64,000 nt of DNA, taken from the NCBI RefSeq assembly GCF_009914755.1, contig NC_060928.1; one strand, 5' to 3'. A program made the position numbers and the translations under genes. Shown here piece by piece: positions 9,187-23,561 of this stretch (position 1 is the first letter of the stretch; each line of letters starts with the position of its first letter). Source of the stretch: the human T2T-CHM13v2.0 reference genome, Homo sapiens. A model generated the notes under the pieces. It was given only the letters and a program-made list of their open reading frames with translations. It did no database searches and was not told the origin of the DNA.

Positions 9187-9539
9187 TGTCAGGCCTCTGA
9201 GCCCAAGCTAAGCCATCATATCCCCTGTGACCTGCATGTACATATCCAGATGGCCAGTTCCTGCCTTAACTGATGACATTATCCTGTGAAATTCCTTCTC
9301 CTTGCTCATCCTGGCTCAAAAGCTCCCCTACTGAGCACCTTGTGACCCCCACTCCTGCCTGCCAGAGAACAACCCCCCTTTTTCCTTTACCTACACAAAC
9401 CCTGTAAAATGGCCCCAACCCTATCTCCCTTCACTGACTCTCTTTTTGGACTCAGCCCACCTGTACCCAAGTGAAATAAACAGCTTTATTGCTCACACAA
9501 AGCCTGTTTGGTGGTCTCTTCACACAGATGCATGTGAAA
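9187..9539 (+). promoter_or_regulatory. HERV-H 5' LTR (LTR7 family), 353 bp
   Basis: TGTCAGGCCTCTGAGCCCAAGCTAAGCC...ATGTGAAA; AATAAA in R; homologous to 22848-23248. Confidence 0.95.
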
Positions 9540-9541
9540 TT

Positions 9542-9559
9542 TGGTGCTGTGACTCGGAT
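9542..9559 (+). other. Primer-binding site for tRNA-His
   Basis: TGGTGCTGTGACTCGGAT, one mismatch to TGGTGCCGTGACTCGGAT, directly after the LTR. Confidence 0.93.
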
Positions 9560-11525: not shown

Positions 11526-12703
11526 CAATGCCCGATCAATTGCCTCGGAAGCCTACAGGACCATCACAGACGCTCTACCTAACTCTCACAGTGGAGGGTA
11601 AGTGCATCCCCTTCTTAATCAATACGGAGGCTACCCACTCCACATTACCTTCTTTTCAAGGGCCGGTTTCCCTTGCCTCCATAACTGTTGTGGGTATTGA
11701 CAGCCAGGCTTCTAAACCTCTTTAAACTTCCCAACTCTTGTGCCAACTTAGACAATACTCTTTTAAGCACTCCTTGTTAGTTATCCCCACCTGCCCAGTT
11801 CCCTTATTAGGCTGAGACCCTTTAACTAAATTATCTGCTTCCCTGACTATTCCTGGACTACAGCCACATCTCATTGCCACCCACCTTAACCCACAAGTAG
11901 AAGATACCTCTGCTCCCTCCTTGGCAACCTATCATGCACCCCTTACCATCTCATTAAAACCTAATCACCCTTACCCCGCTCAATGTCAATATCCCATCCC
12001 ACAGCATGCTTTGAAAGGATTAAAGCCTGTTATCACTCGCCTGCTACATCATGGCCTTTTAAAGCCTATAAACTCTCCTTACAATTCCCCCATTTTACCT
12101 GTGCTAAAACCAGACAAGCCTTACAAGTTAGTTGAGGATCTATGCCTTATCAACAAAATTGTTTTGCCTATCCACCTCAAGGTGCCAAACACATATACTC
12201 TCCTATCCTCAATTCCTCCCTCCACAACCCATTATTCTGTTCTGGATCTCAAACATGCTGTCTTTACTATTCATTTGCACCCTTCATCCCAGCCACTCTT
12301 CGCTTTCAGTTGGACTGACCCTGACACATATCAGGCTCAGCAAATTACCTGGGCTGTACTGCTGCAAAGCTTCACAGACAGCCCCCATTACTTCAGTCAA
12401 GCCCAAATTTCTTCCTTATCTGTTACCTATCTCAGCATAATTCTCATAAAAACACACGTGATCTCCCTGCCGATCGTGTGTGACTCATCTCTCAAACCCC
12501 AACCCCTTCTACAAAACAACAACTCCTTTCGTTCCTGGGCATCGTTGGACACTTTCACCTTTAGATACCTGGTTTTGCCATCCTAACAAAACCATTATAT
12601 AAACTCACAAAAGGAAACCTAGCTGACCCCATAGATCCTAAATCCTTTCCCCACTCCTCTTTCTGTTCCTTGAAGACAGCTTTAAAGACTGCCCCCACCC
12701 TAG
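11526..12703 (+). pseudogene. pol: HERV-H pro-pol 5' part (protease and RT, internally deleted)
   Basis: FLINTEATHS (degenerate DTG), SPYNSPILPVLKPD, YSVLDLKHAVF; ends at the CTAG target site. Confidence 0.88.
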
Positions 12704-12706
12704 TCT

Positions 12707-12724
12707 TGGTTCCCTGACCGGGAA
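12707..12724 (+). other. Primer-binding site for tRNA-Glu
   Basis: TGGTTCCCTGACCGGGAA, complementary to the tRNA-Glu 3' end. Confidence 0.93.
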
Positions 12725-13248
12725 GCGAGGTACTTGATGGACAGTTGAGGCAGCCCTTTAGGCGGCTTAGGACTGCCCTGTGGAGCATCCCTGCGGGCGA
12801 CTCCTGCCAGCTTGAGCGACGCGGATCCTGAGAACTCTCCCGGGTAGGGAATTGACCCGGTGGAATGCCTCGTCAGAGCAGTGTGTGGTAGGCCCCCGTG
12901 GAGGATTGACACAGTGGGTCAACACCGGGAAGGAACAGGCACTTGGAGTCCGGACATTTGAAACTTGGTAAGACTGGTCTTTGGAACTTGCCCACTCTAT
13001 CTGAGTGGAAGTGTGGCCTGATCACACACGGCGTGCCTGTACTGGCACTTTGGTTTTTGTTTTTGACTTGACTTGAATTGCTTGATAATTTGGTTTTGGT
13101 TTGACCTGGCTTGGATTTCTGGATACTCTGATTTTGGTTTTGATTCTGGTTTGGTGAAAACTGAAAAAGTGTGTGTGTGCCTTTTTTACCTATTCTTTGT
13201 TCTGTTGTGTGCGTGTGGTGTGAGCTTGGTGTTTTGTCTCGAGGAAAC

Positions 13249-14855
13249 GTGGGTCAGACACAAAGTAAGCCTACTCTGCTAGGAACTATGTTGAAAAATT
13301 TTAAGAAAGGATTTAATGGAGACTCTGGGGTTACTATGACACCAGGGAAACTTAGAACTTTGTGTGAAATGGATTGGCCAACATTAGAAGTAGGATGGCC
13401 ATCAGAAGGAAGCCTGGACAGGTCCCTTGTTTCTAAGGTATGGCACAAGGTAATTGGTAAGTCAGGACACTCAGACCAGTTTCCATACATAGACACTTGG
13501 TTACAGCTGATGCTAAACCCCCCACAGTGGCTAAGAGGGCAGGCAGCAGCAGTGCTAGTAGCAAAGGGAAAGATAGCCAAGGAAGGATCCCGCTCCACCC
13601 GCAGAGGGAAATCAACTCCTGAAGTTCTGTTCGACCCAACATCAGAAGATCCATTGCAGGAGATGGCACCAGTGATCCCAGTGGTGCCCTCCCCTTACCA
13701 GGGAGAGAGGCTCCCCACTTTTGAGTCCACAGTGCTTGCGCCTCCACAAGACAAACATATCCCTAGGCCACCCAGAGTATACAAGAGAGGAGGTGAGGAC
13801 TCGGGAGAAACACCTCCCTTGGCAGCTCGTTTCGACCCAAAACGGGGATACAAATGCCCCTGTGAGAACAGCGGTATACTGGGATAGATGAGGATGGTCA
13901 CGTGGTGGGGAGACATGTTTCTGTGTACCAGCCCTTCACCTCTGCCCACCTTCTCAACTGGAAAAATTATACCCCGTCCTATACCAAAAAGCCACAAGCT
14001 CTGATTGATTTGCTCCAAACTATTATGCAGACACATAACCCCACTTGGGCTGATTGCCACCAGTTGCTCATGTTCCTCTTTAACACAGATGAAAGGCGGA
14101 GACTGCTCCAAGCAGCAAAGAAGTGGCTAGAGGAACATGAGCCAGCTGATTACCAAAACCCCCAAGAGTATGTAAAGACCCAGTTACTGGGAACCAACCC
14201 CCAGTAGGACCCAAATGAAAGAGAGGATATGCAAAGGCTAAACCGATACAGGGAAGCTCTCTTGGAAGGATTAAAGAGGGGAACCCGGCAGGCCACAAAC
14301 GTTAACTAGGTTTCTGAGGTCATTCAGAGAAAAGAAGAAAGTCCAGCACAATTCTAGGAGAGACTGTGTGAGGCCTATGGTATGTATACTCCCTTTGATC
14401 CCGATAGCCCTGAAAATCAATGCATTATTAACATGGCTTTAGTTAGTCAAAGCACAGAAGACATTAGAAAAAAGCTGCAGAAACAGGCTGGGTTTGCAGG
14501 GATGAACACATCACAGTTATTAGAAATAGCTAACCAGGTATTTGTAAACAGGGATGCAGTAAGCCGTAAGGAAAACTGCAGAGAGAAGAAACATCAGGCC
14601 CAGCGAAATGCCGACCTGTTAGCGGCAGCAATCAGAAGGGTCACCCAAAAGAGGCAAGGGAAGGGGGGCCCCGGGAAAGAAACTCAGCCTGGCTGTCAGA
14701 GCTTGCAGCGTAATCAGTGTGTTTATCGTAAATAAATAGGACATTGGAAGAACAAATGCCCTCAGCTAAAAAGAAAACAAGGTGACTTGGAGCAAGAGGC
14801 TCCAGACAAGGAGGAAGGGACCCTGCTCAACCTGGCAGAAGGGTTATTGAACTGA
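13249..14855 (+). pseudogene. gag: HERV-E gag (start codon now GTG; frameshift and stops)
   Basis: (M)GQTQSKPT..., WPSEGSLD, PSPY late-domain-like motif, HNPTWADCHQLL, degenerate CCHC CVYRK*IGHWKNKC; TGA at 14853-14855 in frame with pro (readthrough-type junction). Confidence 0.9.
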
Positions 14856-17800
14856 GGGGGACTGGGCTCAAGGACCCCCAAAGAGCCTATGGTCAGGATG
14901 ACAGTTAGGGGTAAAGACATTGATTTTCTTGTAGATACCGGTGCTAAACATTCGGTAGTAACCGCGCCGGTAGCCCCCTTATACAAAAAGATTATTGACG
15001 TCATGGGAGCCACAGGGGTTTCAGCAAAGGAAGCTTTCTGCTTGCCCCGGACTTCTACTGTAGGAGGACGTAAAGTGATTCATCAGTTTTTGTCCACACC
15101 TGACTGTCCCTTGCCCTTATTGGGAAGGCACTTGCTTAGCAAACTGAGAGCCACTATCTCTTTTACAGAGCATGGCTCTTTGCTGCTAAAGTTACCCAGA
15201 ACGGGAGTCATTATGACCCTTACCGTCCCCCCAGAGGAGGAATGGAGATTTTCCTTAACTGAGTCGGGCCAAGAGATAAGACCAGCTCTGGCTAAGCAGT
15301 GGCCAAGAGTGTGGGCGGAAGACAACCCTCCAGGGTTGGCAGTCAACCAAGACCCCGTACTTATAGAAGTTAAGCCTAGGGCCCAACCTTTTAGGCAAAA
15401 ACAGAAGCCGGTCCTCAGAGAAGCTCTTGAAGGTATCCAGGTCCATCTCAAGCACCTAAGAACTTTTGGAATTAGAGTTCCTTGTCAGTCTCCATGGAAC
15501 ACTCCCCTCCTGCCTGTTCCCAAGCCTAGGACCAAGGACTACAGGCCTGTACAGGATTTGCGCTTGGTTAATCAGGCTACAGTGACTTTACATCCAGCAG
15601 TACCTAACCTGTACACATTGCTGGGGTTGCTGCCAGCTGAGGACAGCTGCTTCACCTGCTTGGACCTGAAAGATGCTTTCTTTAGATTCAGATTAGCCCC
15701 TGAGAGGCAGAAGCTGTTTGCCTTTCAGTGGGAAGATCCGGAGTCAGGTGTCACTACTCAGTACACTTGGACCCGGCTTCCCCAAGGGTTCAAGAACTCC
15801 CCCACCAGCTTCGTGGAGGCATTGCCTCGAGACCTCCAGAAATTTCCCACCAGAGACCTAGACTGCGTGTTGCTCCAGTAGGTTGATGACCTTTTGCTGG
15901 GACACCCCACGGGAGTCGGGTGCGCCAAGGGAAGAGATATTCTACTCCGGCACCTGGAGGACTGTGGGTATAAGGTGTCCAAGAAAAAAGCTCAGATCTG
16001 CTGACAGCAGGTACGTTACTTAGGATTTACTATCCGACGGAGGAAGCGCAGCCTAGGATCAGAAAGAAAGCAGGTCATTTGCAATCTACCGGAGCCTAAG
16101 ACCAGAAGGCAGGTGAGAGAATTCTTATGGGCTGTGGGATTTTGCAGACTGTAGATCCCAAACTTTGCAGTATTAGCCAAGCCTTTGTGTGAGGTCACAA
16201 AGTTGGGGGACCGGGAAACTTTTGAATGGGGATCCCAGCAACAGCAAGCCTTTCATGAGTTAAAGGAAAGACTTATGTCAGCCCCAGCCCTGGGGCTACC
16301 CGATCTAACAAAGCCTTTTCCATTGTATGTGTCAGAGAGAGAAAAGATGGCAGTTGGAGTTTTAACCCAAACTGTGGGGCCCTGGCCAAGGCGGGTGGCC
16401 TACCTCTCTAAACAACTAGACGGGGTTTCTAAAGGATGGCCCCCGTGTTTGAGGGCCTTGGCAGCAACTGCCCTGCTAGTACAAGAAACAAATAAGCTGA
16501 CTCTTGGACAAAACCTGAACATAAAAGCACCCCGTGCTGTGGTGACTTTAATGAATACTAAAGGACATCATTGACTAATGAATGCCAGACTCACCAACTA
16601 CCAAACTTGGCTCTGTGAAAATCCTCGTATAACCATTGAAGTTTGTAACACCCTACGCCCCACCACCTTGCTCCCAGTATCAGAGAGCCCTGTTGAGCAT
16701 GACTGTGTAGAAGTGTTGGACTCAGTTTACTCTAGCAGACCTGACCTCCAGGGCCAGCCTTAGGCATCAGTAGACTAGGAACTATACGTGGATGGGAGCA
16801 GCTTCATCAACCCACAGGGAGAGAGATGTGCAAGATATGAGGTGGTAACTCTGGACACGGTTGCTGAAGCCAGATCGTTTCCCCAGGGCACTTCAGCCCA
16901 GAAAGCTGAACTCATTGCTTTCATTCAGGCCTTAGAACTCAGTGAAACTAAGAATGTCAACATTTACACTGACTCTCAATATGCCTTTTTAACCCTTCTA
17001 GTGCATGGAACATTATATAAAGAAAAGGGCCTACTGAACCCTGGGGGAAAAGACATAAAATATCAACAAGAAATCTTGCGATTATTAAAAGCCGTATGGA
17101 GACCCCACAAGGTGGCAGTTATGCATTGCAGGGGACATCAGCAAGCTTCCACCTTGGTGGGTTTAGGGAATTCCTGCACTGACTTAGAGGCTCGAAAAGC
17201 AGCATCTGCCCCATTCCGGACATCAGTCACAGCCCCCCTGCTCCCTCAAGCACCTGATCTTGTACCTACTTATTCTAAAGAAGAAAAGGACTTTCTCCAG
17301 GCAGAAGGAGGACAAGTGATGGAGGAAGGATGAATTCGGTTACCGTATGGGAGAGTAGCTGTGCCACAGCTGCTAGGAGCTGCAGTTGTACTGGCTGTGC
17401 AGGAAACCACCCATCGAGGTCAGGAATCACTTGAAAAGTTGTTAGGCCGGTATTTCTACATCTCGCATTTGTCAGCTCTTGCCAAAACGATGACGCAGTG
17501 GTGTGTTACCTGCCGACAGCATAATGCGAGGCAGGGTCCAGCCGTTCCACCCGGCATACAAGCTTATGGAGCAGCCCCCTTTGAAGATCTCCAGGTGGAC
17601 TTCACTGAGATGCCAAAGTGTAGAGGTAACAAGTATTTACTAGTTCTTGGGCGTACCTATTCTGCGTAGGTGGAGGCTTATCCAACACGAACTGAGAAAG
17701 CTCGTGAAGTAACTCGTGTGCTTCTTCGAGATCCTATTCCTAGATTTGGACTGCCCTTATGGATCGGCTCAGATAACGGGCCGGCGTTTGTGGCTGACTT

Positions 17801-18448
17801 AGTACAGAAGGTGGCAAAGATATTAGGGATCACATGGAAAGGACATGCTGCCTACTGGCCTCAGAGTTTCAGAAAGGTGGAGCGAATGAATCAAACTATC
17901 AAAAATAGTTTAGGGAAAGTATGTCAGGAAACAGGATTAAAATGGCTACAGGCTGTCCCTATGGTATTATTTAAAATTAGATGTACCCGTTCTAAAAGAA
18001 CAGGATATTCCCCTTATGAAATATTATATCGTAGGCCCCCTCCTATATTGTGGGGACTTCCAGGCACTCCCTGAGAGTTAGGTGAAATTGAGTTACAGCG
18101 ACAGCTACAGGCCTTAGGAAAAATTACACAAACAATCTCAGCCTGGGTAAATGAGAGATGCCCTGTTAGCTTATTCTCCCCAGTTCACCAATTCTCCCCA
18201 GATGATCAAGTGTGGATCAAGGACTGGAAAGTAGCCTCTTTGTGTCCACGGTGGAAAGGACCCCAGACTGTCGTCCTGAGCACTCCCACCGCTGTGAAGG
18301 TAGAAGGAATCCCAGCATGGATCCAACACAACCATATAAAACCTGCAGCGCCTGAAACCTGGGAGGCAAGACCAAGCCCAGACAACCCTTGCAGAGTGAC
18401 CCTGAAGAAGACGAGACAAGCTCTGCTCCAGTCACATCCAGAAGCTGA
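14856..18448 (+). pseudogene. pol: HERV-E pro-pol (protease, RT, RNase H, integrase), multiple stops
   Basis: FLVDTGA, SPWNTPLLPV, LPQGFKNSP, YVDD changed to *VDD (15879), DGSS, IYTDS, QVDFTEM, GSDNGPAF, RWKGPQTV. Confidence 0.93.
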
Positions 18449-18470
18449 CTGGTCCACGCATGGCCAAAGC

Positions 18471-20515
18471 CTGAGGAAGCTCATCATGAGATTCATTTTT
18501 CTTAAATTTTGGACTTATACAGTAAGGGCTTCAACTGACCTTACTCAAACTGGGGACTGTTCCCAGTGTATTCATCAGGTCACCGAAGTAGGACAGCAAA
18601 TTAAAACAATCTTTCTGTTCTATAGTTATTGTGAATGTATGGAAACATTAAAAGAAACTTGTTTGTATAATGCCACTCAGTACAAGGTATGTAGCCCAAG
18701 AAATGACCGACCTGATGTGTGTTATAACCCATCTGAGCCCCCTGTAACCACCGCTTTTGAAATAAGAATAAGAACTGGCCTTTTCCTAGGTGATACAAGT
18801 AAAATAATAAGTAGAACAGAAGAAAAAGAAATCCCCAAGCAAATAACTTTAAGATTTGATGTTTGTGCAGCCATTAATAGTAAAAAGCTAGAAATAGGAT
18901 GTGGTTCTCTTAATTAAGGAAGGAGCTGAAGAGTAGAAAATAAATATGTTTGCCATGAATCAGGGGTTTGTGAAAATTGTGGCTATTGGACATGTGTTAT
19001 TTAGGCTACTTAAAAAAAGAACAAAAGGACCCGGTTTATCTTCAGAAGGGGAAGCCAACCCCTCCTGTGCTGCCGGTCACTGTAACCCACTACAACTAAT
19101 AATTACCAATCCCCTAGATCCCCGTTGGAAAAAGAGAGAATGTGTAACCCTGGGGATCAATAGGACAGGGTTAAACCCTCAAGTTGCCATTTTAATTAGA
19201 GGGGAGGTCCACAAGTGCTCTCCCAAACCAGTATTTCAAACCTTTTGTGAGGAGCTGAATGTGCTAGCACCAGAACTTCTGAAAAAGACAAAAAATTTGT
19301 TTCTCCAATTAGCAGAAAATGTAGCTCATTCCCTTAATGTTACTTCTTGTTATGTACGCGGAGGAACCACTATCGGAGACAGATAGCCTTGGGAAGCCCG
19401 AGAGTTGGTGCCTACTGATCCAGCTCCTGATATAATTCCAGTTCAGAAGGCCGAAGCTAGCAACTTCTAGGTCCTAAAACCTCAATTATTAGACAATACT
19501 GTATAGCTAGAGAAGGGAAAGACTTTATCATCCCTGTAGGAAAGCTTAATTGTATAGGACAGAAGTTGTATAACAGCACAACACAGACAATTACTTAGTA
19601 GGGCCTAAACCACACTGAAAAGAATCCATTTAGTAAATTTTCTAAATTAAAAACTGCTTCGGCTCATCCAGAATCTCATCAGGACTGGACGGTTCCCGCT
19701 GGACTATACTAGATATGTAGGCACCGAGCCTACTTTCGGTTACCTAATAAATGGGCAGGCAGTTGTGTTATTGGCACTATTAAGCCGTCCTTTTTCTTAT
19801 TACCCATAAAAACAGGTAAGCTGCTAGGTTTCCCTGTCTATACCTCCCGAGAAAAGAAAGGCATAGCTATAGGAAACTGGAAAGATAATGAATGGCCCCC
19901 AGAAAGGATCATACAGTATTATGGGCCTGCCACATGGGCACAAGATGGCTCATGGGGATACTGAACCCCCATCTACATGCTCAATTGGATCATACGGTTG
20001 CAGGCCGTCTTAGAAATAATTACTAATGAAACTGGCAGAGCTTTGACTGTTTTAGCTTGGCAAGAAACCCAAATGAGGAATGCTATCTATCAGAATAGAT
20101 TGGCCTTAGACTACTTGCTAGTAGCTGAAGGAGGAGTTTGTGGAAAATTTAACTTAACCAATTGCTGCCTACAAATAAATGATCAAGGACAGGTGGTTAA
20201 AAACATAGTCAGGGACATGACAAAGGTGGCACATGTGCCTTTACAGATTTGGCACGAGTTTAATCTGAGTCTTTATTTGGAAAATGGTTTCCAGCGGGAG
20301 GAGGATTTAAACCCCTCATTGTAGGTGTATTGCTAGTGATAGGAACTTGCTTGCTGCTCCCCTGTGTATTATCCTTGTTTTTTCAAATGATAAAAGGTTT
20401 TGTTGCTACTTTGATTCATCAGAAAACTTCAGCACAGGTGTATTATATAAATCACTACGGTTCTACCTCAGAGAGAGACTCAAAAAGTAAAGATGAGAGT
20501 GAGAACTCCCACTAA
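18471..20515 (+). pseudogene. env: HERV-E env (disrupted)
   Basis: Signal peptide LIMRFIFLKFWTYTV; REKK cleavage-like site; [20 protein letters not shown] with CX6CC; tail ...DESENSH*. Confidence 0.92.
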
Positions 20516-20542
20516 AAAGTGAAAATGCTCAAAGGGGGGAAA

Positions 20543-21039
20543 TATGGTATGAGACCACCACTTCTCCTGTTGTCCTTCCCAGTTTCTCCCCAACCTCCCT
20601 TTTTCCCTAGTTTGTAAGACAGGAAAAAAGGGAGAAAGCAAAAAGTTGGAAAAAACAGAAGTAAAATAAATAGCTAGACGCCCTCGGCGCCACCACCTGG
20701 CCCTGGTGGTTAAAATAACAATAATATTAACCCCTGACCAAAACTACCTGTGTTATCTGTAAATCCCAGACATTGTATGAGAAAGCACTGTAAAAACTTT
20801 TTGTTCTGTTAGCTGATGTTTGTAGCCCCCAGTCACATTCCTCAGGCTTACTTGATCTATTATGACTTTTTCGGGTAGACCCCTTAGAATTGTAAGCCCT
20901 TAAAAGGGCTAGGAATTTCTTTTTCAGGGAGCTCGGCTCTTAAGACACGAGTCTGCCGACGCTCCCGGCCGAATAAAAAAACCTCTTCCTTCTTTAATCC
21001 GGTGTCTAAGGAGTTTTGTCTGCAACTCGTCCTGCTACA
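20543..21039 (+). promoter_or_regulatory. HERV-E 3' LTR (LTR2C-like), 497 bp, with poly(A) signal
   Basis: Follows PPT AAAGGGGGGAAA; TATGGTATGAGACCACC...GTCCTGCTACA; AATAAA at 20972-20977. Confidence 0.9.
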
Positions 21040-21043
21040 CTAG

Positions 21044-22270
21044 CTCTCCGTGACTCATCCCAACCCTTTTCATTACACACAGCCGAAGTGCAGCGCTGTG
21101 CAGTTGAAATTCTTACACAAGGACCAGGATCGCATCCTGTAGCCTTTTTGTCCAAACAACTTGACCTTACTGTTTTAGGTTGGCCATTATGTCTCCGTGC
21201 AGCAGCTGCTGCCACCCTAATACTTTTAAAGGCCCTTAAAATCACAAGCTATGGTCAACTCACTCTCTACAGCTCTCATAACTTCCAAAATCTATTTTCT
21301 TCCTCACACCTGCCACATATACTTTCTGCTCCCTGGCTCCTTCAGCTGTACTCACTCTTTGTTGAGTCTCCCACAATTACCATTGTTCCTGGCCCGGACT
21401 TCAATCCGGCCACCCACATTATTCCTGATACCACACCTGACCCTCATGACTGCATCTCTCTGGTCCATCTGACATTCACCCCATTTCCCCACATTTCCTT
21501 CTTCTCTGTTTCTCACCCTGATCACACTTAGTTTATTGATGGCAGCTCCACCAGGCCTAATCGCCACACACCAACAAAAGCAGGCTATGCTATAGTACAA
21601 GCCACTAGCCCGCCTCTTAGAACCTCTCATTTCCTTTCCATCGTGGAAATCTATCCTCAAAGAAATAACTTCTCAGTGTTCCATCAGCTATTCTACTACT
21701 CCTCAGGGATTCTTCAGGCCCCCTCCCTTCCCTGCACATCAAGCTCAAGGATTTGCCCCCACCCAGGACTGGCAAATTAGCTTTACTCAACGTGCCCCGA
21801 GTCAGGAAACTAAAATACCTCTTGGTCTAGGTAGACACTTTCACTGGATAGGTAAGGGCCTTTCCCACAGGGTGTAAGAAGGCCACCAAGGTCATTTCTT
21901 CCCTTCTGTCAGACATAATTCCTCAGTTTAGCCTTCCCACCTCTATACAGTGTGATAGCAGACCGGCCTTTATTAATCAAGTCAGCCAAGCATTTTTTCA
22001 GGCTTCTAGTATTCAGTGAAACCTTTATATCCCTTACAGTCCTCAGTCCTCAGGAAAGTAGAACAGACTAATGGTCTTTTAAAAACACATCTTACCAAGC
22101 TCAGCCACCAACGTAAAAAGGACTGGACAATACTTTTACCACTTTCCCTTCTCAGAATTCAGGCCTGTCCTTGGAATGCTACAAGGTACAGCCCATTTGA
22201 GCTCCCATATAGACGCTCCTTTTTATTAGGCCCCAGTCTCATTCCAGACACCAGACCAACTTGGACTGTG
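21044..22270 (+). pseudogene. pol: HERV-H pol 3' part (RT connection, RNase H, integrase remnants)
   Basis: Resumes ctagctctccgtgactcatcccaaccc; PVAFLSKQLD, *FIDGSS, KVEQTNGLLK, YSPFEL. Confidence 0.88.
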
Positions 22271-22847
22271 CCCCAAAAAACTTGTCATCCCTACTGTCTT
22301 CTGTCTAGTCATACTCCTATTCACCGTTCTCAACTACTCATATATGTCCTGCTCTTGTTTACACTGGTGGTTTACACTGTTTCTCCAAGCCATCACAGGT
22401 GATATCTCCTGGTGCTATCCCCAAACCACCACTCTTAACTCTTAAATAAATAATCTTTGCTGGCAAGGCTATGCTGAACCTCCTTAGGCACTCTCTAATT
22501 AGATGTCCTAGGTCCTCCCAATTCTTCATCCTTTAATACCTGTTTTTCTCCTTCTCTTATTCCGTTTAGTTTTTCAGTTCATAGAAAACTGTATCCAGGC
22601 CATCACCAATAATTCTAAATGACAAATGTTTCTTCTAACAACCCTACAATATCACCCCTTACCACAAAATCTTCCTTCAGCTTAATCTCTCCCACTCTAG
22701 GTTCCCATGCCACCCCTAATCCCCCTCGAAGCAGCCCTGAGAAACATCGCCCGTTCTCTCTCCATACCACCCCCAAAAAATTTTCACCATCCCAATACTT
22801 TACCACTATTTCATTTTATTTTTCTTATTACTATAAGAAGACAGGAA

Positions 22848-23561
<714 letters not shown>

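What the first reader, a model, noticed from the sequence alone, without database searches (positions are those of the whole stretch)
12700..21043. HERV-E with a clean 4-bp TSD but no 5' LTR: it starts at the primer-binding site
Seen: HERV-H pol reads ...GCCCCCACC-CTAG|TCT-TGGTTCCCTGACCGGGAA (PBS-Glu), then gag-pol-env-PPT-LTR...GCTACA|CTAG-CTCTCCGTGAC, where pol resumes with no apparent loss of host sequence. The 5' LTR is missing while both CTAG copies survive. Known: gammaretroviral integrases make 4-bp TSDs around two-LTR DNA, and LTR-LTR recombination leaves a solo LTR, not this structure. Inference: PBS-to-U5 is the structure of minus-strand cDNA before plus-strand transfer, so this may be a fossil of an aborted reverse-transcription intermediate joined by integrase at one end and host repair at the other. 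The alternative is a near-precise later deletion aided by similarity between TATGGT (LTR start) and TCTTGGT.
Basis: partly seen in the sequence, partly recalled or inferred. Interest (0 to 1): 0.8.

Follow-up and report, generated by a model that had tools for sequence, protein, structure and literature searches.

The report
One-LTR HERV-E with intact target duplication
An ancient retrovirus copy sits inside another retrovirus with a perfect 4-base insertion scar but no left-hand repeat, which suggests that an unfinished viral DNA was integrated, although a later tidy deletion cannot be excluded.

Summary
A HERV-E (window 12704-21039) lies in the pol region of a HERV-H. It is flanked by CTAG on both sides (12700-12703 and 21040-21043). 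It has gag-pro-pol, a polypurine tract and one 497-bp LTR, but no 5' LTR. CTAG is a true duplication: 19 of 19 unoccupied HERV-H copies carry one uninterrupted tetranucleotide there (CTAG in 17). The element does not start at the primer-binding site. Other HERV-E copies have a 5-nt spacer, TTTCT, between the LTR's terminal CA and the site. This element has lost the LTR plus TT and keeps TCT.

All 11 copies of the locus in the assembly (chr3, 4, 7, 8, 11, 12) share the junction. This rules out an assembly artefact and dates the event before the duplications. None of 72 other HERV-E copies inspected, and no HERV-E hit in two genome-wide filter searches, shows the same structure.

The locus is the published HERV-H/HERV-E/HERV-H hybrid of "type II DA" duplicons. 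My best reading (about 0.5) is concerted integrase insertion of a DNA whose minus strand was never extended into the LTR. A near-precise deletion before duplication (about 0.35) remains open.

The parts
9188..9541 (+). 5' LTR (LTR7-like) of the host HERV-H, followed by its PBS at 9542-9559
   Evidence: Pairs with 22849-23245 at 82% identity. Sequence read. About 100 other HERV-H copies show the same LTR-end/PBS arrangement.
11816..12699 (+). HERV-H pol upstream of the insertion
   Evidence: The ORF at 11816-12586 gives a sub-threshold RVT_1 match (E 0.0019). The stretch is colinear with 19 other HERV-H copies up to the CTAG.
12700..12703 (+). Left copy of the 4-bp target-site duplication, CTAG
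   Evidence: The tetranucleotide is single in 19 of 19 unoccupied HERV-H copies. It is present at this junction in 11 of 11 paralogs.
12704..12706 (+). TCT, the last 3 nt of the 5-nt U5-PBS spacer TTTCT; first bases of the element
   Evidence: other HERV-E copies read ...GCTACA TTTCT TGG...
12707..12724 (+). 18-nt primer-binding site (tRNA-Glu type)
   Evidence: A 20-nt pattern (this site plus the next two bases) recurs with up to 2 mismatches at 203 genomic sites against 4 control hits. Complementarity to tRNA-Glu is recalled knowledge, not tested here.
13165..14735 (+). gag (matrix and p30 capsid), in broken frames
   Evidence: Pfam Gag_MA at 3.3e-17; Gag_p30 at 8.4e-16 and 4.2e-12.
14856..18917 (+). 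pro-pol: protease, RT, RNase H, integrase, in several broken frames
   Evidence: Pfam RVP, RVT_1, RT_RNaseH_2, RNase_H, zf-H2C2, rve (below cut-off), MLVIN_C.
18937..20515 (+). Presumed env region
   Evidence: Assigned by position only. Four ORF fragments gave no Pfam hit at E <= 0.001.
20531..20539 (+). Polypurine tract AAAGGGGGG, followed by AAA
   Evidence: Read.
20543..21039 (+). The only LTR (497 bp, TATGG...GCTACA)
   Evidence: The start was fixed by TSD pairs GCAG (L045/L089) and CCAC/CCAT (L039/L087). The end was fixed by the CTAG flank. There is no second copy in the window.
21040..21043 (+). Right copy of the target-site duplication, CTAG
   Evidence: Present in 10 of 10 copies that have a 3' junction.
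21044..22848 (+). Remainder of the HERV-H interior; pol resumes here
   Evidence: The ORF at 21010-21531 gives RT_RNaseH at 2.8e-05, 24.7 bits against a cut-off of 24.8. It is colinear with other HERV-H copies.
22849..23248 (+). 3' LTR of the host HERV-H, with an internal 51-bp tandem duplication

Best explanation
A HERV-E DNA that never acquired its left LTR was inserted by the viral integrase in a normal concerted reaction. The target was a CTAG site in the pol region of a resident HERV-H.

The right end is the ordinary U5 end, processed after CA. The left end is the 3' end of the minus strand. That strand had copied the PBS and three spacer bases but was not extended through U5-R-U3, because plus-strand transfer or the final strand-displacement synthesis failed. 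Integrase used this 3'-OH as a stand-in for the U3 end. Any unpaired plus-strand LTR flap was removed during host gap repair, which also filled the 4-nt gaps and produced the CTAG duplication.

The one-LTR provirus then rode along as the surrounding duplicon spread to chr3, 4, 7, 8, 11 and 12. The structure, the duplication, the age relative to the duplications and the uniqueness are shown. The state of the DNA ends at integration and the role of integrase at the left end are inferred.
For: - The CTAG duplication is exact with no host loss. 4 bp is the duplication length seen at other HERV-E proviruses (GCAG, and CCAC/CCAT).
- CTAG fits this family's target preference. Of 19 other LTR ends, 9 have central TA and 6 start with CTA.
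- The right end stops exactly at the LTR's terminal CA.
- The left end falls inside the 5-nt U5-PBS spacer. That is where the minus-strand 3' end lies before LTR completion in the textbook model.
- The interior is otherwise complete and colinear with other copies from its first base.
- Only one base (T) is shared across the would-be deletion breakpoints.
- All 72 other HERV-E copies inspected keep U5 upstream of the PBS (19, 53). Two filter searches found no other HERV-E PBS without it. The one candidate turned out not to be HERV-E.
- All 11 of 11 paralogs share the junction.
- Reverse-transcription errors around plus-strand transfer are a recognised source of HIV proviruses with defective 5' LTRs (PMC12657518, passages).
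Against: - Nothing in the present sequence separates this from normal integration followed by loss of the LTR plus 2 nt.
- The left end has no integrase recognition sequence. Its likeness to the true U3 end (TCTTGGT against TATGGT) is weak and equally supports a slippage deletion.
- The canonical CA in the minus strand (ACCA|AGA) was not used as the processing site.
- No second example was found, so there is no evidence of a recurrent mechanism.
- The papers said to show that avian integrase can join non-canonical ends were not held. I know them only by title, from a reference list.
Confidence: 0.5

Rival explanations
1. A normal two-LTR provirus integrated at CTAG. Before the first duplication of the locus, a 499-bp deletion removed the 5' LTR plus the following TT. 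By chance, or helped by the imperfect repeat TATGGT/TCTTGGT, it left the duplication and the rest of the provirus untouched.
For: - Deletions are common in old proviruses.
- One base (T) of microhomology, and a 6-of-7 gapped likeness, lie between the LTR start and the spacer-PBS.
- The event is single and old, so one chance event is enough.
- Genome scans select for oddities.
Against: - Both breakpoints would have to fall within about 1 nt of the LTR edge on the left and inside a 5-nt spacer on the right.
- My rough estimate, an inference and not a computation, is well under one such event expected among roughly 10,000 human proviruses.
- 0 of 72 other inspected HERV-E copies has lost U5 while keeping the PBS.
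- The better microhomology available (CTA in CTAG and in GCTACA) was not used.
Confidence: 0.35
2. Integrase joined only the U5 end of an aborted reverse-transcription intermediate, and host repair joined the PBS end.
For: - The right end is canonical.
- One-ended integration with host completion is documented and can be efficient (PMC5041404, passages).
Against: In those experiments the host-joined side usually carries duplications of hundreds to thousands of bp, deletions, inversions or foreign inserts, and often a short homology (PMC5041404). Here the flank is an exact 4-bp duplication with no homology at the joint.
Confidence: 0.08
3. Integrase-independent capture of cDNA at a break, guided by homology between the PBS and the target. 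The 8-nt string TCCCTGAC occurs both in the PBS and 3 nt to the right of the target CTAG in typical HERV-H copies.
For: - The 8-nt identity is seen in 14 of 19 empty HERV-H copies.
- An integrase-independent pathway that uses primer homology exists for the Tf1 element (PMC11042837, search-listing abstract only).
Against: - The homology is out of register with both junctions.
- The sequence between CA and the homology is host, not viral.
- The right end stops exactly at CA.
- The filled copies read CTCTCCGTGAC.
Confidence: 0.03
4. Assembly or collapse artefact.
For: The region is highly duplicated.
Against: The identical junction occurs at 11 separate places on six chromosomes, with 0.1-7% divergence around it.
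Confidence: 0.01

Closest known systems
HERV-H/HERV-E/HERV-H hybrid element of 'type II DA' duplicons
   Same: [quoted passage not shown] The source is PMC2700803 (abstract and passages read). That paper cites Lindeskog et al. 1998, Virology 244:219. The 8p23.1 and 11p15.4 copies are listed as transcribed HERV-E loci, and the 8p23.1 one carries the alias ERVE-3 (PMC3492278, passages).
   Different: The passages I could read do not mention the missing 5' LTR, the CTAG duplication or the start inside the spacer. The 1998 paper and the 2008 Genomics paper were not available, so they may already describe it.
Aberrant integrations with one bad viral end (ASLV mutants; HIV with suboptimal integrase inhibitors or weak integrase mutants)
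   Same: One end is normal and joined by integrase. The other end is non-canonical and often truncated (PMC5041404).
   Different: Those events usually carry large host duplications, deletions or inversions. Here the host flank is the canonical 4-bp duplication.
HIV-1 defective proviruses from aberrant or premature second-strand transfer
   Same: An error at the plus-strand transfer stage yields proviruses without a functional 5' LTR (PMC12657518, passages).
   Different: Those are internal-deletion or partial-LTR forms seen by PCR in patients. No complete LTR-less left end beside an intact duplication is described in the passages read.
One-LTR circular or open-circular reverse-transcription products (recalled textbook knowledge)
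   Same: The sequence content is the same: one LTR plus the full interior, with the strand discontinuity at the U5/PBS border.
   Different: These are regarded as dead-end, unintegrated forms. Here the same content is integrated as a linear element opened at that border.
Solo LTR from LTR-LTR recombination
   Same: Both are one-LTR derivatives of a provirus with the duplication retained.
   Different: A solo LTR loses the interior. This element keeps the whole interior and loses only the left LTR, so this is not that process.

Membership tests
HERV-E (gammaretrovirus-like class I ERV) | 18-nt PBS of the tRNA-Glu type directly downstream of U5 | tested here: met
   The PBS at 12707-12724 is the same as in other HERV-E copies. 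The match to tRNA-Glu itself is recalled, not computed.
HERV-E (gammaretrovirus-like class I ERV) | gag-pro-pol with MLV-type domains, polypurine tract and LTR | tested here: met
   Pfam Gag_MA, Gag_p30, RVP, RVT_1, RNase_H and MLVIN_C are present in order. The tract and LTR were read. The 257 nt of PBS and leader are 85-90% identical to other copies.
HERV-E (gammaretrovirus-like class I ERV) | env gene | tested here: inconclusive
   ORF fragments at 18937-20515 gave no Pfam hit. The length from PBS to LTR end (8336 bp) is close to that of a full copy on chrX (about 8.33 kb, from the coordinates).
Canonical integrated provirus | Two LTRs in direct orientation | tested here: not met
   There is only one LTR (20543-21039) and no second copy anywhere in the window. 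The 5' LTR is absent in 11 of 11 paralogs.
Canonical integrated provirus | Short target-site duplication of family-specific length | tested here: met
   CTAG appears on both sides and is single in empty HERV-H copies. Duplications of 4 bp are seen at other HERV-E proviruses.
Solo LTR | LTR alone between the duplication copies | tested here: not met
   7.8 kb of interior is retained.
LINE-1-mediated processed copy of viral RNA | Starts in R/U5, ends in R plus poly(A), with a 7-20 bp duplication | tested here: not met
   It starts in the spacer before the PBS, ends at the U5 CA with no poly(A), and has a 4-bp duplication.
One-ended (host-completed) aberrant integration | Non-canonical host flank at the aberrant end (large duplication, deletion or inversion) | tested here: not met
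   The host sequence is exactly continuous apart from the 4-bp duplication. The class is described in PMC5041404.
Type II DA duplicon HERV-H/E/H element | HERV-E/HERV-H junction unique to these duplicons, at 3q, 4p, 7p, 8p, 11 and 12p | tested here: met
   Full-length junction matches occur only at chr3, 4, 7, 8 (four copies), 11 (three copies) and 12. The loci are listed in PMC2700803.

The most novel reading that the evidence does not exclude
This is a germline fossil showing that a retroviral integrase can carry out a fully concerted insertion, making the normal duplication, with only one true LTR end. The un-extended minus-strand 3' end beside the PBS of an incomplete, one-LTR reverse-transcription product served as the second end. 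Unfinished reverse transcripts would then be integration-competent, and would be a distinct origin for proviruses lacking a 5' LTR.
Probability: 0.5. Interest if true: 0.65.

Novelty: new variant of a known kind. Interest (0 to 1): 0.5.

Why it matters
If the structure arose at integration, integrase does not strictly need two LTR ends. Incomplete reverse transcripts could then enter the germline with a normal-looking insertion scar. That bears on how promoter-less, 5'-defective proviruses arise, including those in present-day retroviral reservoirs. It also bears on how one-LTR elements in genome annotations should be read.

The question is testable, by surveying other families and ape genomes for left ends clustered at the spacer or PBS. 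If the structure is only a lucky deletion, it is a curiosity inside an already described duplicated HERV-H/HERV-E hybrid.

Tried and rejected
- **Displaced LTR:** I looked for the missing LTR elsewhere in the window. None was found.
- **Second HERV-E example:** 203 PBS-pattern hits. I fetched the flanks of 53 of the 100 listed and all were normal. Negative-filter patterns returned only the paralogs, mutated normal copies, other PBS-Glu element types and chance hits. The candidate at C4:5512630 is not HERV-E. The filters miss about 1 in 16 candidates and require 16 exact PBS positions. There are 149 exact TCT-plus-PBS sites in total, and 10 of them are the paralogs.
- **HERV-H survey:** my first filter was mis-designed, because this window's LTR7 end carries a 2-nt insertion. 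The second filter gave about 10 sites with unusual upstream bases. I could not inspect them, so there is no result either way.
- **CTA microhomology:** a deletion between the CTA in CTAG and the CTA in GCTACA predicts a junction that is not observed.
- **PBS/target 8-mer homology:** it is out of register with both junctions.
- **Literature:** two searches for an LTR-less provirus with a target duplication found no description, and no held paper contains the phrase 'lacking the 5 LTR'. A third search, on aberrant integration and plus-strand transfer, gave the two HIV papers cited. The canid ERV paper mentions truncated proviruses without junction detail. Lindeskog 1998 and two J Virol papers by Oh et al. 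were not held.
- **Dating:** see the full report. The divergence between clades looks older than the published date, and I did not resolve this.
Full report
**What is there.** The window is chr4:9.05-9.12 Mb of the T2T assembly. A HERV-H runs from its 5' LTR (9188-9541, PBS at 9542) to its 3' LTR (22849 to about 23248). Its pol region is interrupted at 12703/12704 by a HERV-E. The ORF upstream of the break gives a sub-threshold reverse-transcriptase match. The ORF just downstream gives an RT-RNase H connection-domain match 0.1 bit below cut-off.

- Left: ...CACC CTAG | TCT | TGGTTCCCTGACCGGGAAG...
- Right: ...GTCCTGCTACA | CTAG | CTCTCCGTGAC...

Between them lie gag (MA, p30), protease, RT, RNase H and integrase in order, all in broken frames. 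Next comes a presumed env region with no Pfam hit, then the polypurine tract (20531-20539) and one 497-bp LTR (20543-21039). No second LTR or other HERV-E fragment exists anywhere in the 64 kb.

**Is CTAG a real target-site duplication?** Yes. Nineteen other HERV-H copies retrieved with the flank read straight through...CCC-CTAG-CTCTCC..., with a single tetranucleotide and no extra or missing base. It is CTAG in 17 and a one-base variant in 2. Four bp is the duplication length at other HERV-E proviruses. One has GCAG on both sides, another CCAC/CCAT. Among 19 other LTR ends of this type, 9 have TA in the centre of the 4 bp after the LTR and 6 begin CTA. CTAG is therefore a typical site for this family's integrase.

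**Where exactly does the element begin?** Not at the PBS.
- In 19 of 19 other HERV-E copies found with the leader, U5 lies upstream of the PBS.
- The same holds in 53 of 53 further copies whose PBS flanks I fetched.
- The LTR's terminal CA is separated from the PBS by five bases. These read TTTCT in 51 of the 53 and in most of the 19.

The element here keeps TCT and lacks the LTR plus TT. Across the would-be deletion only one base (T) is shared.

**Age and reality.** The same 5' junction, base for base through CTAG-TCT-TGG, is present at 11 places: chr4 (this window), chr7, chr8 (four copies), chr11 (three copies), chr12 and chr3. The 3' junction is present at 10 of them. One chr8 copy gave no 3' hit.

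The copies form three groups that differ by about 3.4-4.8% at non-CpG sites. The figure is similar in the HERV-H and HERV-E parts. So the one-LTR state predates all the duplications and cannot be an assembly artefact.

This is the published HERV-H/HERV-E/HERV-H element that defines 'type II DA' duplicons at these same chromosomal sites. It is said to be absent from the older 'type I' copies and to have arisen 14-7 Myr ago (PMC2700803, abstract and passages). My divergence figures look older than that, and I did not resolve the discrepancy. The 8p23.1 and 11p15.4 copies are listed as transcribed HERV-E loci, the 8p23.1 one under the alias ERVE-3 (PMC3492278, passages). The passages I could read say nothing about the missing LTR. 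The original 1998 description was not available.

**Is it unique?** Among HERV-E copies, apparently yes.
- There are 149 exact TCT-plus-PBS sites in the genome, and 10 of them are these paralogs.
- Two filter searches asked for a PBS not preceded by the usual U5 bases. They returned only the paralogs, mutated but recognisable normal copies, other element types that use the same PBS, and chance hits.
- The single candidate proved not to be HERV-E.
- The filters would miss about one candidate in sixteen.
- A similar attempt for HERV-H gave about ten sites with odd upstream bases. Whether the architecture recurs in other families is therefore untested.

**Mechanism.** The content, spacer remnant-PBS-gag-pol-env-PPT-U3-R-U5, is what the minus strand spans after the first jump and before the LTR is completed. 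This follows from the textbook model of reverse transcription. The right end is a canonical integrase-processed end, stopping at CA.

The clean 4-bp duplication is the signature of the two-ended integrase reaction. In ASLV and HIV systems where integrase joins only one end and host enzymes join the other, the host flank usually carries duplications of hundreds to thousands of bp, deletions, inversions or foreign DNA (PMC5041404, passages).

Two readings remain.

(a) Integrase joined both ends, taking the un-extended minus-strand 3' end three bases beyond the PBS as a surrogate U3 end. Any single-stranded plus-strand LTR flap would be trimmed during gap repair, which naturally deletes 'LTR plus TT'. 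A variant is that the left end was blunt at TTTCT and lost two bases by ordinary 3' processing. Both are inference. Errors around plus-strand transfer are a recognised source of HIV proviruses defective in the 5' LTR (PMC12657518, passages).

(b) A normal provirus lost 499 bp before the first duplication. This requires a left breakpoint within about one base of the LTR edge and a right breakpoint inside a five-base spacer, with one base of microhomology. By a rough estimate of mine (not a computation), such a deletion is expected well under once among the roughly ten thousand proviral loci of the genome. Selection of oddities by a scan, and the weak repeat, keep it alive.

I put (a) at about 0.5, (b) at 0.35, the one-ended version at 0.08, and homology-guided capture or an artefact at a few per cent together.

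**An oddity.** The 8-nt string TCCCTGAC occurs in the PBS and also three bases to the right of the target CTAG in 14 of 19 empty HERV-H copies. The filled copies read CTCTCCGTGAC there. It is out of register with both junctions and is probably chance.

**Verdict.** The locus itself is already known as a duplicated hybrid element. The LTR-less, duplication-flanked architecture is a new variant of known aberrant-integration products, if it was not already noted in the 1998 paper that I could not read. The mechanism is not settled by the human sequence alone.

Noticed in passing
L039-L060 and L091-L143 (HERV-E 5' LTR/PBS junctions); window 20540-20547: HERV-E copies have a conserved 5-nt spacer, TTTCT, between the LTR's terminal CA and the PBS. 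The integrated LTR begins TA (TATGG) rather than TG, with AAA between the polypurine G-run and the LTR start. This implies that more than the usual two bases are trimmed from the viral DNA ends in this family.
   Followed up: partly
window 12712-12719 and 21047-21054; L012-L030: The 8-nt string TCCCTGAC is shared by the HERV-E PBS and the HERV-H sequence just right of the target CTAG (14 of 19 empty copies). The filled copies carry G in place of the third C. It is out of register with the junctions.
   Followed up: partly
L001-L011, L061-L070: The three paralog groups (chr4+chr7; chr8, four copies; chr11, three copies, plus chr12 and chr3) differ by about 3.4-4.8% at non-CpG sites. That seems high for the published 14-7 Myr age of type II DA duplicons. 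The four chr8 copies differ by only 0.1-0.8%.
   Followed up: partly
window 22185-22650: The chr4 and chr7 copies differ structurally from the chr8 and chr11 copies inside the 3' part of the HERV-H (a block of gaps and mismatches in the alignment). The block lies within a stretch masked as repeat, so it is probably a lineage-specific insertion.
   Followed up: no
G000 C8:12.76 Mb (L004/L033): This chr8 paralog has the 5' junction, but no 3' junction was found in two searches. It may be truncated by a duplication boundary or a rearrangement.
   Followed up: no
window 22911-22992: There is a 51-bp tandem duplication (31-nt core, 94% identical) inside the HERV-H 3' LTR that is absent from the 5' LTR. 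This window's 5' LTR end also has two extra bases (GCATGTGAAA) compared with most HERV-H copies (GCATGAAA).
   Followed up: no
G000 C7:126594192, C8:144192094, C2:28528550, C4:148179105, C19:9492204, C8:91984053, C16:16833309, C18:4377555: These are HERV-H-type PBS sites whose 7 upstream bases do not look like the usual LTR7 end. They could be other families, mutated copies or further LTR-less starts.
   Followed up: no
G000 C1:89052792, C2:241034816, C10:103070548, C13:84189588: A different element type uses the same tRNA-Glu-type PBS after an LTR end reading ...ATAACAGA(A/T)TT. It was not identified.
   Followed up: no
G000 C3:79829314 (L121) and C11:103576098: Two HERV-E copies have small tandem duplications within the PBS region.
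   Followed up: no
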